From: a virus | UHGV virus genome: UHGV-0133741 | Direction: 5' to 3' (one strand) | Length of the DNA stretch: 64,000 nucleotides | Shown here: one piece after another, positions 50,171-53,111 of the stretch | How positions within the stretch are numbered: the stretch's first letter is position 1 | How the letters are laid out: each line of letters opens with the position of its first letter | The notes under the pieces: generated by a model | What the model was told of the DNA's origin: nothing | Databases searched by the model: none | The model's input: only the letters and a program-made list of their open reading frames with translations | Position numbers and translations under genes: made by a program

Positions 50171-50674
50171 TTGAGTATTTTCAATAAACACGCACACCAG
50201 GAACGTCCGTATATCGTCATAGTCGATATTGATGGAACAATATCAGAGGCAACTGAAGACAGACTGCATTTGCTTCCGCCACCAGGTAAAGGTGCATTAA
50301 CAAAGGACTGGAACGAGTTTAATCTCGCCTGTGACACCGATACTCCCATCACTCCAGTTATTGATATGGTGCGCCAGTTATTTAACGTTTACACGGTCTG
50401 GTTTGTAACCGGGCGCTGTGAGATCGCAAGGGATAAAACACGAGCTTGGCTGCGGAAGTACGTAACAAACGGGGCTGAGCCTTTGCTATCTATGCGTCCT
50501 GCCACCGATGACAGAAATGACGGCCCAGCAAAGATTGATCTCCTTAAGAAAATTGGTCTAAGTAAAATCGCGTTCGCGCTGGAAGATAAGATTGAAGTGG
50601 CGCGTGTTTTCAGGAGTCACGGCGTACTTACGTTAATGGTCAGGGAGTATGAAAACGCGCTTCTCCATCAGTAA
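50171..50674 (+). CDS. pap: HAD-superfamily phosphatase-like protein
   Basis: 167 aa; HAD motif I VIVDIDGTIS; gene symbol tentative, by analogy to P1 pap. Confidence 0.5.
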   Translation: MSIFNKHAHQERPYIVIVDIDGTISEATEDRLHLLPPPGKGALTKDWNEFNLACDTDTPITPVIDMVRQLFNVYTVWFVTGRCEIARDKTRAWLRKYVTNGAEPLLSMRPATDDRNDGPAKIDLLKKIGLSKIAFALEDKIEVARVFRSHGVLTLMVREYENALLHQ

Positions 50675-50676
50675 TA

Positions 50677-50693
50677 ATTGCTCTAATAAATCT
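50677..50693 (+). promoter_or_regulatory. C1 operator-like site (Op88-like)
   Basis: ATTGCTCTAATAAATCT. Confidence 0.55.
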
Positions 50694-50775
50694 TGATTTT
50701 TAAAGCAGAGAAAGTGAAAATAAAAACATGCCGCAAGGCGCGGCATGTATCCAATCAATCACAGGAGCTGAAAAT

Positions 50776-50862
50776 ATGAACACGGCATTCAAAATCATTA
50801 TGGCCGCGATCTATTTCTGGCTGTTCTCTATCACTTTTGGCGGCATCGTCGCGCATGGGTAA
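50776..50862 (+). CDS. small hydrophobic peptide (28 aa)
   Basis: MNTAFKIIMAAIYFWLFSITFGGIVAHG with AGGAG Shine-Dalgarno 8 nt upstream; below the 60-aa cutoff of the supplied track. Confidence 0.3.
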   Translation: MNTAFKIIMAAIYFWLFSITFGGIVAHG

Positions 50863-50898
50863 GGGGGATGCATGAAAGGCGAAGTGAAAGAGCGCGGC

Positions 50899-51450
50899 AT
50901 GATTTTCAACGATGAGATGGTCCGGGCAATTCTTGGGGGGAATAAAACACAGACTCGCAGGATTGTTGAAGAAAAATTCTATGGACGGGCAGTGGCCGTA
51001 GAGTTGCTTGCTAAGCATTGTCCATATGGTCAACCGGGCGATCGTATTTGGGTTCGCGAAACCTACCGGGTACATGGCAAAGCGACGGACGTCGCAACGC
51101 TGGTTTATCGCGCAAGCGTGCGTAACTCCTGGACAGAACAAACGCACCGGGTTCCGGTCGAGGTTTGTAATAAACCAGTATCAGAAAAGTGGACGCCATC
51201 AATTCACATGCCGCGCTGGGCTTCGCGTATTTTGCTGGAAATTACCGACGTGCGTGTGGAACGGCTGCATGACATGAGCGAGGCAGATGCTAAAGCGGAA
51301 GGCGCATCTCCGGCGACGTACAAGATTACACCGCCGGAAGCTGTTTATCGCGTTGGTTTCGGTGATATCTGGCGCGGTATTTACGGGCAAGAGAACTGGC
51401 TATCTAACCCGTGGGTATGGGTAATCGAGTTTAAGCGCATTCAGGAATAA
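50899..51450 (+). CDS. ASCH/PUA-like domain protein
   Basis: Track ORF 50872-51450; MIFNDEMVRAILGGNKTQTRR...GQPGDRIWVRETY... resembles the ASCH family. Confidence 0.45.
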   Translation: MIFNDEMVRAILGGNKTQTRRIVEEKFYGRAVAVELLAKHCPYGQPGDRIWVRETYRVHGKATDVATLVYRASVRNSWTEQTHRVPVEVCNKPVSEKWTPSIHMPRWASRILLEITDVRVERLHDMSEADAKAEGASPATYKITPPEAVYRVGFGDIWRGIYGQENWLSNPWVWVIEFKRIQE

Positions 51451-51453
51451 ACC

Positions 51454-52332
51454 GTGAGTATGCATCAAGTCGTCAGCTTTTCAGGTGGACGAACATCAGC
51501 TTATCTCGTTCATCTGATGGAAGCACAGCGAAAAGCTGGCGCTAGCGTCCATTTCATTTTTATGGATACCGGCTGTGAACATCCTCTGACGTATCGCTTT
51601 ATTCGTGAGGTTGTGAAGTTCTGGAACGTACCGCTAACGGTGTTGCAGGTCGATATAAATCCAGAACTTGGGCAGCCAAATGGTTATACGGAATGGGAAC
51701 CAAAGGATATTCAGACGCGAATGCCGGTGATTAAACCGTTTATGGACATGGTTAAAAAGTACGGTACGCCATACATCGGCGGCGCGTTCTGTACTGACAG
51801 GCTAAAACTCACCCCTTTCATGAAATATTGCGATGACCATTTTGGGCGAGGGAATTACATCACATGGCTGGGTATTCGTGCGGACGAACACCGTAGGCTG
51901 AAACTGAAACCGGGCGTCCGGTATCTTGCAGAGCTGTCAGATTTTGATAAGTCGGATGTTATCCGGTGGTGGCGAAAACAACCTTTTGATTTGCAAATCC
52001 CGGAGCACCTCGGGAACTGTGTTTTTTGCATCAAAAAGTCAACGCAAAAGCTGGGGCTTGCATGTAAAGACGAACCTGGTCTGATGCGGGTTTTTAATGA
52101 ACTGGTTACAGGCAAACACGTCAGGGATGGTCATCGCAGAACAGGTAAAGACGTTATGTACCGTGGCCACCTGACGCTTGACGGGATTGCCAGAATGTAT
52201 GCCGACAGTGACTACAGAAATTTGTATCAGGCGATGGTGCTGGCCAAGCGGTTTGATACTGGTTCGTGTTCCGAATCATGTGAAATCTGGGGTGACCAAT
52301 TGGAGTTGAAATTCGAAGAGGTAGTGGAATGA
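51454..52332 (+). CDS. PAPS reductase-family (PP-loop ATP pyrophosphatase) protein
   Basis: 292 aa; PP-loop SFSGGRTS, ...FMDTGCEHPLTY...; CxxC near the C-terminus (GNCVFCIKKS). Confidence 0.6.
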   Translation: MSMHQVVSFSGGRTSAYLVHLMEAQRKAGASVHFIFMDTGCEHPLTYRFIREVVKFWNVPLTVLQVDINPELGQPNGYTEWEPKDIQTRMPVIKPFMDMVKKYGTPYIGGAFCTDRLKLTPFMKYCDDHFGRGNYITWLGIRADEHRRLKLKPGVRYLAELSDFDKSDVIRWWRKQPFDLQIPEHLGNCVFCIKKSTQKLGLACKDEPGLMRVFNELVTGKHVRDGHRRTGKDVMYRGHLTLDGIARMYADSDYRNLYQAMVLAKRFDTGSCSESCEIWGDQLELKFEEVVE

Positions 52333-52532
52333 CAATCGTAAAAACCCATACCGGTACCGTGATCACCAAAGATGGCCCGAAGGTAAAAAAACTGCACCAA
52401 ACAGAGCGGATGTGGGTCGTTGGCAAAAACGAGTTTTACCACAAAGAAACTGGACGCCGCCATTTTGCAGAAAATACGCGCCGCCGACTGCTGTTAGACA
52501 CCATCAAGCCTATCGAGGTGAAGCATGTTTAA
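52329..52532 (+). CDS. small hypothetical protein
   Basis: 67-aa ORF, start overlaps the previous stop. Confidence 0.3.
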   Translation: MTIVKTHTGTVITKDGPKVKKLHQTERMWVVGKNEFYHKETGRRHFAENTRRRLLLDTIKPIEVKHV

Positions 52533-52764
52533 ACAGAACGAAAAAGCTATCGCTCAAATTGCTGATTATATCCCGCGTGCGTGCCGGGGTATGCAGTTGC
52601 AGGAAGCCAAAGCGCGCCTAGAGAAAAAAATTGCGCTCTATATTGATGACGGATGTGATGCCGCCGTTCTTAACGCGGCGTTCGCACCAGCTCTTAACTG
52701 TCACACTCGGGAGTCTTTTTTTTCGTGCATCGCAGCGCAACTCCGCCAAGGAGGCAACCAGTGA
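52525..52764 (+). CDS. small hypothetical protein
   Basis: 79-aa ORF. Confidence 0.3.
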   Translation: MFKQNEKAIAQIADYIPRACRGMQLQEAKARLEKKIALYIDDGCDAAVLNAAFAPALNCHTRESFFSCIAAQLRQGGNQ

Positions 52765-53111
52765 GTAACCGTTTTTACATGATGTGCTTGCGTGAAACCG
52801 TGGGTAATAACGCCTCATTCCATTGCCATAACGGCAATGGTTACAGCTCTGATATCGATCGCGCTCATGTTTACACGCTGGAAGAAGCCCAAAAAGCCTG
52901 GAATTGTGGGCGAGATATCGAGCCACCTATTAGCGCCAATCTTGATGTTGCTGGTGGCAGGCTGGTTTCGGTTCTATTTGGTGATTACCGCGACGACTTC
53001 TTTCAGCCTGAAGAAGTTGATGTAGTGCGAGAAGCATTAAACGAGCTAAGTGTTGATAACGATGATGCTCATGCGGAAATCATCAAAAAAATGGAACTGC
53101 TAACTCACTGA
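52725..53111 (+). CDS. hypothetical protein
   Basis: Track ORF; probable start near 52776 (MMCLRETVG...). Confidence 0.3.
   Translation: MHRSATPPRRQPVSNRFYMMCLRETVGNNASFHCHNGNGYSSDIDRAHVYTLEEAQKAWNCGRDIEPPISANLDVAGGRLVSVLFGDYRDDFFQPEEVDVVREALNELSVDNDDAHAEIIKKMELLTH

What the first reader, a model, noticed from the sequence alone, without database searches (positions are those of the whole stretch)
50899..52332. ASCH-like reader plus PAPS-reductase-family PP-loop enzyme as the first genes of a C1-repressed operon
Directly downstream of an Op88-like C1 operator, a PUA/ASCH-like protein (a fold that typically binds modified nucleic-acid bases) precedes a PAPS-reductase-family protein with an SGGxxS PP-loop and a CxxC pair. 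PAPS-reductase-like enzymes act in DNA phosphorothioation (DndC/SspD-type) and other nucleic-acid modifications. This pairing of reader and modifier, expressed early, could be a DNA or RNA modification or an anti-restriction module. I do not recall such a function being described for P1.
Basis: partly seen in the sequence, partly recalled or inferred. Interest (0 to 1): 0.55.

Follow-up and report, generated by a model that had tools for sequence, protein, structure and literature searches.

The report
P1-like PmgT (ASCH) plus lambda-type NinC
Two early accessory genes of a P1-like phage-plasmid sit side by side: a PmgT variant with an ASCH hydrolase fold, and a copy of phage lambda's NinC, whose relative in a Vibrio phage helps evade Dnd restriction. 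The genes are real, but they are a lineage-specific juxtaposition and not a conserved reader/writer system.

Summary
A C1 operator identical to P1 Op88 lies at 50677-50693. It is followed by a 28-aa hydrophobic ORF, a 192-aa ASCH-fold protein (50872-51450) and a 292-aa PAPS-reductase-family protein (51454-52332).

- **ASCH gene.** It is a short allele of P1 pmgT. It carries the YqfB-type catalytic set (K25, T28, R30, E143), so it is more likely a hydrolase than a passive reader.
- **PAPS-reductase gene.** It is NinC: 79% identical to lambda NinC, with about 92.5% DNA identity to Stx-phage ninC. It is absent from reference P1. It is not CysH. It has a canonical SGGxxS PP-loop and four invariant cysteines (C113, C189, C192, C276).
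- **Functional leads for NinC.** Family members are fused to Dcm and Dam DNA methyltransferases. One PAPS-Dam fusion, Vibrio phage 44E38.1 p0018 (54% identical), was shown to help a phage escape Dnd restriction when transferred together with a second gene.
- **The pairing is not conserved.** It occurs only in P1-like plasmids, about 10% of them. Lambdoid phages, 78 of 80 diverse genomes and the Vibrio phage have NinC without the ASCH gene, and P1 and SJ46 have PmgT without NinC.

Verdict: a new member of known kinds.

The parts
50677..50693 (+). C1 repressor operator, identical to P1 OpmgT (former Op88), overlapping the predicted PpmgT promoters
   Evidence: Pattern search: 1 mismatch to the consensus, 13 sites in the window vs 0.34 expected. 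Alignment to annotated P1.
50776..50862 (+). 28-aa hydrophobic small ORF (MNTAFKIIMAAIYFWLFSITFGGIVAHG) with an AGGAG ribosome-binding site. It is the first ORF after the operator.
   Evidence: Sequence. 100% conserved in P1 and pZ1322PEC0253-2. Annotated 'membrane protein' in SJ46.
50872..51450 (+). pmgT allele (192 aa): ASCH-fold protein with a YqfB-type GxKxxTxR octapeptide (G23, K25, T28, R30), plus E143 and W167. It carries an insertion of roughly 85 residues with conserved CPYGxPGDRxWVRE and PSIHMPRWASR motifs.
   Evidence: phrog_874, E 1.8e-84. 44% identical to P1 PmgT, with the same first 21 residues. AF2 pLDDT 86 and ASCH-only top Foldseek hits. Motif conservation.
51454..52332 (+). 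ninC (292 aa from the GTG, 290 aa from the ATG at 51460): PAPS-reductase-superfamily PP-loop protein with four invariant cysteines
52329..52532 (+). orf67 (phrog_1226), start overlapping the ninC stop codon. It travels with ninC in Stx phages and P1-like plasmids. Function unknown.
   Evidence: Not found next to distant NinC homologues.
52525..52764 (+). orf79 (phrog_1344), part of the same lambdoid block. Function unknown.
55180..55209 (+). Terminator-like hairpin followed by a T-run. Probable end of the Op88-controlled accessory operon.

Best explanation
The Op88-controlled operon of this P1-like phage-plasmid is a mosaic cassette of early accessory genes. Its two largest genes are independent functions that recombination has placed next to each other.

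Gene 2 is a lambda-type NinC. It is an ATP-pyrophosphatase (PP-loop) enzyme of the PAPS-reductase/DndC/SspD superfamily, and its four invariant cysteines probably hold an Fe-S cluster or act as redox or persulfide cysteines. I infer that it works on DNA, or on the host's DNA-sulfur modification machinery, early in infection. Its likely role is to protect the phage genome from modification-dependent restriction of the Dnd/Ssp type. It could do this by installing or promoting a sulfur-containing mark, or by hijacking or blocking the host system.

Gene 1 is a PmgT allele. It is an ASCH-domain protein that keeps the Lys-Thr-Glu triad and oxyanion Arg of the ac4C amidohydrolase YqfB, so it is probably a hydrolase that removes an acyl-type group from a cytosine-like base in a nucleoside, tRNA or DNA. 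It acts on its own.

Shown here: gene identities, folds, motifs, fusions, distribution and regulation by homology to P1. Inferred: the chemistry, the substrates and the defence system that is targeted.
For: Identity and mosaic origin.

NinC is not CysH. It has a canonical SGGRTS loop where CysH structures show SSSFG. It has no ECGLH tail. The cysH, APS and PAPS models score 13-22 bits against cut-offs of 154-254.

The best named relative is SspD at 1.3e-13, with BrxP and DndC weaker.

In 48 unique sequences at 34-100% identity, S10-G-G-R-x-S15, D38-T-G-x-E-H, C113, C189, C192 and C276 are invariant or nearly so, and C272 is present in 46 of 48.

Fusions link NinC to DNA: Dcm-NinC-Dam in Mixta and Sodalis, and NinC-Dam in Providencia, Erwiniaceae and Vibrio phage.

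Experimental support from a homologue: Vibrio phage 44E38.1 p0018 (P0101) is 54% identical over 283 residues with all motifs kept. Transfer of p0018 together with p0019 gave anti-Dnd infectivity. A 2026 paper cites this result and notes that phage PAPS reductases cluster in anti-defence hotspots.

Neighbours of NinC are replication, recombination, nin and methylase genes. No sulfur-mobilisation or DndD/E genes were seen.

Independence of the pair.

PmgT as an enzyme. The top Foldseek hit is YqfB, at probability 1.0 and TM 0.72 normalised to the target. GxKxxTxR is present in 136 of 150 family representatives. K25, T28 and R30 are invariant and E143 is nearly invariant. hhalign places E143 on YqfB E74. 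YqfB mutagenesis defines K21, T24, R26 and E74 as catalytic. All 19 ASCH proteins tested in a 2026 preprint deacetylated ac4C in tRNA.

Both genes are dispensable for plaque formation in lambda and P1, which fits accessory or anti-defence roles.
Against: - No biochemical activity is known for any NinC-family protein.
- The Vibrio experiment moved two genes, and the protein carries a Dam domain, so the contribution of the PAPS domain alone was not isolated.
- From my own knowledge, not tested here: lambda DNA is a standard 'unmodified' reference and no sulfur modification has been reported in it. That argues against bulk DNA modification by a 79%-identical NinC.
- Fe-S binding is inferred only from the conserved cysteines. 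I had no model coordinates to check their geometry.
- The similarity to SspD, DndC and CysH covers only the N-terminal 100-150 residues.
- For PmgT, the Pfam ASCH score is below threshold, the hhalign probability is low (14.8%), and the family has a large insertion that YqfB lacks.
- In P1-like plasmids the two genes are tightly spaced (3 nt). At least three pmgT alleles precede ninC, so some selection for the adjacency cannot be excluded.
Confidence: 0.55

Rival explanations
1. One reading: the ASCH protein reads a modified base and the PP-loop enzyme writes it, or one erases what the other installs, and the two work as a dedicated two-gene nucleic-acid modification module.
For: The genes are adjacent and nearly translationally coupled, with the stop at 51450 and the next start at 51454. 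In P1-like plasmids, ninC is preceded by at least three different pmgT alleles. In pEc1079_2 a pmgT-like gene is followed by a ninC deletion scar, which shows the arrangement is older than one plasmid. ASCH and PUA domains do recognise modified bases.
Against: There is no co-occurrence outside the P1-like lineage: 0 of 68 lambdoid loci and 2 of 80 diverse genomes, and in those two the genes are not adjacent. The anti-Dnd Vibrio phage has no ASCH gene nearby. P1 and SJ46 keep pmgT without ninC. The PmgT family is vastly larger than the NinC family: 43,383 clusters at 50% identity against about 5,000 clusters at 90% identity. No ASCH-NinC fusion was seen among the hits.
Confidence: 0.12
2. NinC is a tRNA or RNA modification enzyme, for example a thiolase or a TilS-like base modifier, that retunes host or phage translation. 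It is not a DNA-directed anti-restriction factor.
Against: The recurrent fusions are to DNA methyltransferases (Dcm, D12 class, phage Dam) and not to RNA-binding domains. A homologue gave an anti-Dnd phenotype. The genomic neighbours are DNA replication and recombination genes.
Confidence: 0.15
3. NinC is catalytically inert towards DNA and works as a DndC/SspD mimic. It would titrate or redirect host Dnd/Ssp partner proteins (IscS/DndA, DndD/E, or the restriction module) so that phage DNA escapes restriction.
For: It is a stand-alone protein without DndA, D or E partners in any locus examined. It resembles SspD and DndC only in the core domain. No modification has been reported in lambda DNA (my own knowledge). 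An anti-Dnd phenotype exists in a homologue.
Against: The invariant catalytic-looking residues (PP-loop, DTGxEH, four Cys, several Arg and Lys) are conserved down to 34% identity, including an archaeal MAG. This argues for real chemistry and not mimicry of one host's proteins.
Confidence: 0.13
4. The gene is an auxiliary metabolic gene: a true PAPS/APS reductase that boosts host sulfate assimilation.
Against: The curated cysH, APS and PAPS reductase models score 13-22 bits against cut-offs of 154-254. The C-terminal ECGLH motif is absent. It has a canonical ATP-binding SGGxxS loop where CysH has SSSFG. Sequence similarity is confined to the first 100 or so residues.
Confidence: 0.03

Closest known systems
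Phage lambda NinC (Nin290) and the 'NinC' of Stx-converting phages (phrog_424)
   Same: Full-length homology: 79% amino-acid identity to lambda NinC and about 92.5% DNA identity to Stx2a-phage ninC. Same length and the same invariant motifs. Non-essential early gene.
   Different: Here it sits in a P1-like plasmid prophage under a C1 operator, downstream of pmgT. In lambda it lies in the nin region, and in Stx phages in the early-left ea region.
Vibrio phage 44E38.1 p0018 (PAPS-Dam fusion), part of an experimentally shown anti-Dnd determinant (Piel et al. 2022; preprint 10.1101/2021.05.05.442762)
   Same: 54% identity over 283 residues. The PP-loop, DTGxEH, FCTDR, GNCVFCIKK and GSCSESCE motifs are all conserved.
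   Different: The Vibrio protein carries a C-terminal Dam methyltransferase and was tested together with a second gene. The window protein is the bare NinC domain.
DndC / SspD / BrxP (DNA phosphorothioation PP-loop sulfurtransferases)
   Same: PAPS-reductase-superfamily fold with a canonical PP-loop and conserved cysteines. SspD is the best named HMM hit (1.3e-13).
   Different: Scores are far below the family cut-offs (DndC TIGR03183: 16.9 vs 290 bits). Only the N-terminal half aligns. No DndA/D/E or SspA/B/C partner genes are present.
P1 PmgT ('putative morphogenetic function')
   Same: Same locus directly after Op88, identical first 21 residues, 44% identity overall, same phrog_874 family.
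   Different: 192 aa against 309 aa. It lacks P1's internal insertions and C-terminal extension. In P1 pmgT is followed by pmgU and pmgV, not by ninC.
E. coli YqfB and other ASCH-domain ac4C amidohydrolases / tRNA ac4C erasers
   Same: ASCH beta-barrel fold (Foldseek probability 1.0). GxKxxTxR octapeptide. Equivalents of K21, T24, R26, E74 and Y89. VIEFK C-terminal strand.
   Different: About 85 extra residues with their own conserved motifs. Pfam ASCH is below threshold. His70 is replaced by Asp. The substrate is unknown and no phage member has been tested.

Membership tests
NinC family (lambda Nin290 / phrog_424) | Full-length sequence homology to lambda NinC | tested here: met
   79% identity over residues 3-287 to a contig that is 100% identical to lambda J02459 41021-41950, 'Nin 290'. 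phrog_424 E 2.6e-90.
NinC family (lambda Nin290 / phrog_424) | Family-invariant motifs: SxSGGRxS, DTGxEH, C113, GNCxFCxKK, CxxxC tail | tested here: met
   All are present in the window protein and invariant or nearly so in 48 unique homologues at 34-100% identity.
Assimilatory PAPS/APS reductase (CysH) | Score above the curated equivalog cut-offs (NCBIfam PRK02090, TIGR00434, TIGR02055, TIGR02057) | tested here: not met
   13-22 bits against cut-offs of 154-254.
Assimilatory PAPS/APS reductase (CysH) | C-terminal catalytic ECG[LI]H motif and a degenerate PP-loop | tested here: not met
   The tail is GSCSESCEIWGD with no ECGLH. The loop is the canonical SFSGGRTS, whereas CysH structures align SSSFG at that position.
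DndC / SspD phosphorothioation sulfurtransferases | HMM membership at the curated threshold | tested here: not met
   TIGR03183 DndC 16.9 vs 290.4 bits. PADLOC SspD 49 bits covers only profile positions 2-124 of 277.
DndC / SspD phosphorothioation sulfurtransferases | Operon with a cysteine desulfurase, an ATPase (DndD/SspC) and a DNA-binding or nicking subunit (DndE/SspB) | tested here: not met
   None were found in the window operon, nor among 100 neighbouring genes from about 45 diverse NinC loci.
DndC / SspD phosphorothioation sulfurtransferases | ATP pyrophosphatase activity, a [4Fe-4S] cluster, and sulfur transfer to the DNA backbone | not testable with these tools
   Only the PP-loop and four invariant Cys can be shown.
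Phage anti-Dnd PAPS-domain proteins (Vibrio phage 44E38.1 p0018) | Homology of the PAPS domain | tested here: met
   54% identity, E 3e-107, all motifs kept.
Phage anti-Dnd PAPS-domain proteins (Vibrio phage 44E38.1 p0018) | Confers escape from DndFGH restriction | not testable with these tools
   Shown only for the Vibrio gene pair p0018+p0019.
ASCH domain (PF04266) / PUA-like superfamily | Pfam gathering score | tested here: not met
   16.1 bits vs 21.2. Seven of 49 family members reach E <= 0.01.
ASCH domain (PF04266) / PUA-like superfamily | ASCH beta-barrel fold | tested here: met
   The AF2 model has pLDDT 86.3. Foldseek hits 1-10, 12-14 and 16-18 are YqfB, ASCH or closely related small-barrel proteins (YqfB, PH0355, 3s9x, EF3133, ZmASCH), with probability up to 1.0.
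YqfB-type (GK[T/S]R) ASCH amidohydrolases | Octapeptide GxKxxTxR with catalytic Lys, Thr and Arg, plus the acidic Glu | tested here: met
   G23-N-K25-T-Q-T28-R-R30. K25, T28 and R30 are invariant and E143 is nearly invariant. 136 of 150 representatives have GxKxxTxR. E143 aligns to YqfB E74. The residue roles come from PMC6972931.
YqfB-type (GK[T/S]R) ASCH amidohydrolases | N4-acylcytidine or tRNA ac4C amidohydrolase activity | not testable with these tools
   No phage member was tested in the papers read.
P1 PmgT | Homology and synteny directly after OpmgT/Op88 | tested here: met
   Same position, identical 5' end, 44% identity, E 3e-51.

The most novel reading that the evidence does not exclude
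In the P1-like lineage the YqfB-type ASCH hydrolase (PmgT) and NinC have become a functional pair. In this reading NinC adenylates a base or backbone position and adds sulfur or another group to it in phage or host nucleic acid, and PmgT removes or edits an acyl-type mark. Alternatively, PmgT destroys a modified-nucleotide danger signal. More broadly, the enormous PmgT family (more than 43,000 clusters at 50% identity) would be phage-encoded 'erasers' of host tRNA or DNA marks or of immune signals. That would be a new class of anti-defence enzyme.
Probability: 0.1. Interest if true: 0.75.

Novelty: new member of a known kind. Interest (0 to 1): 0.38.

Why it matters
NinC has been an unexplained gene of phage lambda for decades, and PmgT is a mis-labelled 'morphogenetic' gene of P1. 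This analysis turns both into concrete, testable hypotheses.

NinC is proposed as a PP-loop, cysteine or Fe-S enzyme tied to DNA methyltransferases and to escape from Dnd restriction. PmgT is proposed as a YqfB-type ASCH hydrolase. If NinC proves to be a general anti-phosphorothioate-restriction factor, that would explain its spread through lambdoid, Stx and P1-like phages that move resistance and toxin genes among Enterobacteriaceae.

For this window specifically, the practical result is that the 'reader/writer operon' is a recombination product and not a new system.

Tried and rejected
- **CysH orthology:** rejected.
- **Homology between the window PAPS-family protein and P1 PmgT:** none. 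PmgT turned out to correspond to the ASCH gene instead.
- **Direct sequence match of either protein to solved structures:** only weak N-terminal CysH/APS hits for NinC, and nothing for PmgT, even with a profile.
- **A conserved partner gene for NinC:**
  - PmgT-like ASCH: not conserved.
  - orf67 and orf79: not conserved beyond close relatives.
  - Sulfur-relay or Dnd/Ssp partners: none found.
  - DUF3268 zinc-finger genes recur in 8 of about 45 loci, but were not followed up.
- **ASCH gene next to the anti-Dnd Vibrio gene:** none.
- **Literature on NinC or PmgT function:** only non-essentiality data until the anti-Dnd paper was found indirectly.
- **Geometry of the four cysteines in the model:** could not be inspected, because coordinates are not exposed.
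- **Pfam domains in the rest of the operon (52725-55091):** none.
Full report
**What the window is.** The 12 kb around the finding is 97% identical, in pieces, to P1-like phages and phage-plasmids: SJ46, RCS47, P7 and P1. Only 61-77% of the query is covered, because the region is mosaic. The closest full-length matches to 50600-52600 are about 95-kb non-mobilizable E. coli and Salmonella plasmids. The window is therefore a P1-like plasmid prophage and not reference P1.

**Checking the observation.** The C1 operator consensus ATTGCTCTAATAAATTT occurs 13 times in the window with up to 3 mismatches, against 0.34 expected by chance. One copy lies at 50677-50693. That copy and its surroundings align base for base with the P1 feature annotated as 'monovalent C1-controlled operator OpmgT, former Op88', which overlaps the predicted promoters P1pmgT and P2pmgT.

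Downstream lie:
- a 28-aa hydrophobic ORF (50776-50862, AGGAG ribosome-binding site), 100% conserved in P1 and annotated as a membrane protein in SJ46;
- a 192-aa ORF at 50872-51450;
- 3 nt later, a 292-aa ORF at 51454-52332.

The PP-loop (SFSGGRTS), C189xxC192 and a further C272xxxC276 are all present.

**Gene 1 is a pmgT allele with an ASCH hydrolase fold.** Its first 21 residues and its upstream region are identical to P1 pmgT. Overall it is 44% identical to P1 PmgT (309 aa), which has extra insertions and a C-terminal extension.

It belongs to phrog_874, of unknown function. The family is enormous: 43,383 clusters at 50% identity with E <= 0.001. Pfam ASCH scores only 16.1 bits against a cut-off of 21.2, and 7 of 49 diverse relatives reach E <= 0.01.

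An AlphaFold2 model built on 49 diverse homologues has pLDDT 86.3. All of its significant Foldseek matches in the PDB are ASCH-type proteins: YqfB ac4C amidohydrolase (probability 1.0, TM 0.72 normalised to the target), PH0355, the L. crispatus ASCH domain, EF3133 and ZmASCH.

The protein carries the octapeptide G23-N-K25-T-Q-T28-R-R30, which is the YqfB-type 'GK[T]R' version. K25, T28 and R30 are invariant in the alignment, and 136 of 150 family representatives match GxKxxTxR. hhalign places the nearly invariant E143 on YqfB E74. The 'DIW' and 'VIEFK' segments match YqfB's 'DIY89' and 'VIEFK'.

In YqfB, Lys21, Thr24 and Arg26 are essential. Glu74Ala lowers turnover 100- to 1000-fold, and a Thr-Lys-Glu triad with an Arg oxyanion hole was proposed (PMC6972931). 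A 2026 preprint reports that all 19 ASCH proteins tested, from bacteria, archaea and humans, remove ac4C from tRNA, and that the octapeptide Lys and Glu/Thr are needed. No phage member was tested.

I therefore read PmgT as a probable hydrolase and not a passive reader. Its substrate is unknown. It also has an insertion of about 85 residues with its own conserved motifs (CPYGxPGDRLWVRE, PSIHMPRWASR) that YqfB lacks. P1 pmgT is non-essential.

**Gene 2 is NinC.** From 51463 onwards the DNA is 92.5% identical to Stx2a-converting phages, where the gene is annotated NinC or PAPS reductase. The protein is 79% identical to lambda Nin290 (NinC). This was established through lambda-contaminant contigs that are 100% identical to J02459 41021-41950.

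Reference P1 has no homologue, and P1 PmgT is unrelated to it.

NinC is not CysH:
- The curated cysH, APS and PAPS reductase models score 13-22 bits against cut-offs of 154-254.
- There is no ECGLH tail.
- The loop is a canonical ATP-pyrophosphatase SGGxxS, where CysH has SSSFG.

The best named relative is SspD (PADLOC, 1.3e-13, N-terminal half only), followed by BrxP and DndC.

In 48 unique family members at 34-100% identity, including an archaeal MAG, S10-G-G-R-x-S15, D38-T-G-x-E-H, C113, C189, C192 and C276 are invariant or nearly so. C272 is present in 46 of 48. The pattern fits an Fe-S or redox-cysteine PP-loop enzyme, but I could not check the geometry because coordinates are not exposed.

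**What NinC probably does.** Three lines of evidence point to DNA and to phage-host conflict.
- Fusions. The NinC domain is fused to DNA methyltransferases: Dcm-NinC-D12 Dam in Mixta, Dcm-NinC-Dam in Sodalis, and NinC-Dam in Providencia, Erwiniaceae and Vibrio phages.
- Neighbours. In about 45 diverse loci the neighbouring genes are replication, recombination, nin, antiterminator and methylase genes. No sulfur-relay or DndD/E-type genes appear.
- A tested homologue. One homologue in my hit list, P0101 ('Dam methyltransferase with PAPS reductase domain', Vibrio phage 44E38.1), is 54% identical over 283 residues with every motif kept. It is gene p0018 of Piel et al. Moving p0018 and p0019 into a sensitive sister phage let that phage grow to 10^11 PFU/ml on a host that still carried the Dnd system (its retron had been deleted). 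[quoted passage not shown] A 2026 NAR paper cites this result and notes that phage PAPS reductases sit in variable anti-defence hotspots and in Aca-regulated operons.

The mechanism was not determined. The test used two genes and a fusion protein. As far as I know, no sulfur modification has been reported in lambda DNA. I therefore hold 'anti-Dnd/Ssp-type counter-defence, acting on DNA or on the host modification machinery' as the most likely function. Direct phosphorothioation by NinC itself is only one of several possible mechanisms. Lambda ninC is non-essential.

**Is the pairing meaningful?**
- Among 80 close NinC loci in IMG/VR, the 12 with NinC at least 97% identical to the window's have a PmgT-like gene immediately upstream, in three length variants. 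The 68 lambdoid loci, with NinC at or below 96% identity, have none within 4 kb.
- Among 80 loci from one-genome-per-species bacteria and archaea, only two Xenorhabdus loci have a PmgT-like gene within 5 kb, and it lies downstream and not adjacent.
- The anti-Dnd Vibrio phage has none.
- Conversely, P1 and SJ46 have pmgT without ninC.
- In PLSDB about 64 plasmids carry this ninC, against roughly 520 non-mobilizable plasmids with the Op88 region.
- One plasmid, pEc1079_2, keeps a pmgT-like gene, the first 70 nt of ninC, and then orf67 and orf79, which is a ninC deletion scar.
- orf67 and orf79 move with ninC between Stx phages and P1-like plasmids, but are not found near distant homologues.
- Diverse PmgT-like genes sit in early accessory regions, often near DNA methylases and Acb2/Tad1-like genes. 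This suggests an anti-defence neighbourhood but not a link to NinC.

I conclude that the adjacency is a lineage-specific recombination product inside a hypervariable C1-controlled accessory operon. That operon probably ends at the terminator-like hairpin at 55180-55209. The rest of the operon has no Pfam domains.

**Comparison with known systems and novelty.** Both genes belong to named families, P1 PmgT/ASCH and lambda NinC. A NinC-family member already has an anti-Dnd phenotype in the literature. Neither protein passes the membership tests for CysH or for DndC/SspD proper. This is a new member of known kinds in a new genomic setting.

What this analysis adds is threefold. PmgT is recognised as a YqfB-type ASCH with an intact catalytic set. 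The NinC family's invariant PP-loop plus four-cysteine signature and its Dcm/Dam fusions are documented. Lambda and P1-like NinC are linked to the Vibrio anti-Dnd determinant. Interest is moderate-low for the finding as stated (0.38). The residual novel reading, a functional ASCH-NinC pair or PmgT-family 'erasers' acting as anti-defence enzymes, is possible but unsupported (probability about 0.1).

Noticed in passing
window 50776-50862 (+): A 28-aa strongly hydrophobic ORF (MNTAFKIIMAAIYFWLFSITFGGIVAHG) with a good Shine-Dalgarno sequence lies between Op88 and pmgT. It is 100% conserved in P1, where it is not annotated, and in other P1-like plasmids. SJ46 annotates it as a membrane protein. 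It would be the true first product of the Op88 operon.
   Followed up: partly
window 50726-50748: A perfect 10-bp GC-rich hairpin (ACATGCCGCG-CCT-TGCGGCATGT) sits just after the operator. It scores as an intrinsic terminator only on the minus strand, where a T-run follows it. It might stop antisense transcription or act as an RNA element in the pmgT leader.
   Followed up: no
window 50171-50674 (+): The gene upstream of Op88, P1 'pap' (annotated as a putative acid phosphatase), matches the polynucleotide kinase/phosphatase 3'-phosphatase HAD domain (Pfam HAD_PNKP 7.6e-12; phrog_415 'polynucleotide kinase'). This suggests a nucleic-acid end-repair role and not acid phosphatase activity.
   Followed up: partly
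L119:3402-6698 (Mixta tenebrionis), L123:3396-6530 (Sodalis sp.): Proteins of about 1,050-1,100 aa have the architecture C5-cytosine methylase - NinC domain - N6-adenine methylase (D12 class or phage Dam). NinC-Dam two-domain versions occur in L122 and L128/L129.
   Followed up: partly
L006 (plasmid pEc1079_2, NZ_CP081308.1) 2652-2735: A pmgT-like gene is followed by only the first 70 or so nucleotides of ninC and then orf67 and orf79. This is a clean deletion scar showing that ninC has been lost from an ancestral pmgT-ninC arrangement.
   Followed up: partly
L087, L089, L092-L094, L096 and others (genome-contig hits): Contigs of about 48.5 kb, some at low coverage, in assemblies of unrelated taxa (Pseudomonas, Oceanobacillus, Shewanella, Neobacillus, and small contigs in Bradyrhizobium, Enterococcus and others) all carry the same NinC protein. 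The one checked, L087, is 100% identical to phage lambda at this gene, so the set most likely reflects lambda DNA contamination of those assemblies.
   Followed up: partly
about 45 diverse NinC loci (L098-L158), alignment A4: DUF3268 (zinc-finger-containing domain) genes are the commonest Pfam family among the immediate neighbours of NinC (8 of 100 neighbour ORFs). SSB is directly upstream in several Xenorhabdus prophages.
   Followed up: no
L167 6649-7473, L176 2800-3015: Diverse PmgT-like ASCH genes in metagenomic phage contigs lie within a few kb of genes with the Acb2/Tad1 hairpin domain (anti-CBASS/anti-Thoeris sponge family) and of DNA methylases. They therefore sit in apparent anti-defence gene clusters.
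   Followed up: no
window 52725-55091 (+): The rest of the Op88 operon (ORFs of 128, 129, 54, 214 and 142 aa, including an ead/Ea22-like protein) has PHROG matches of unknown function and no Pfam domain. It looks like lambdoid 'ea'-region cargo moved into a P1 backbone.
   Followed up: partly
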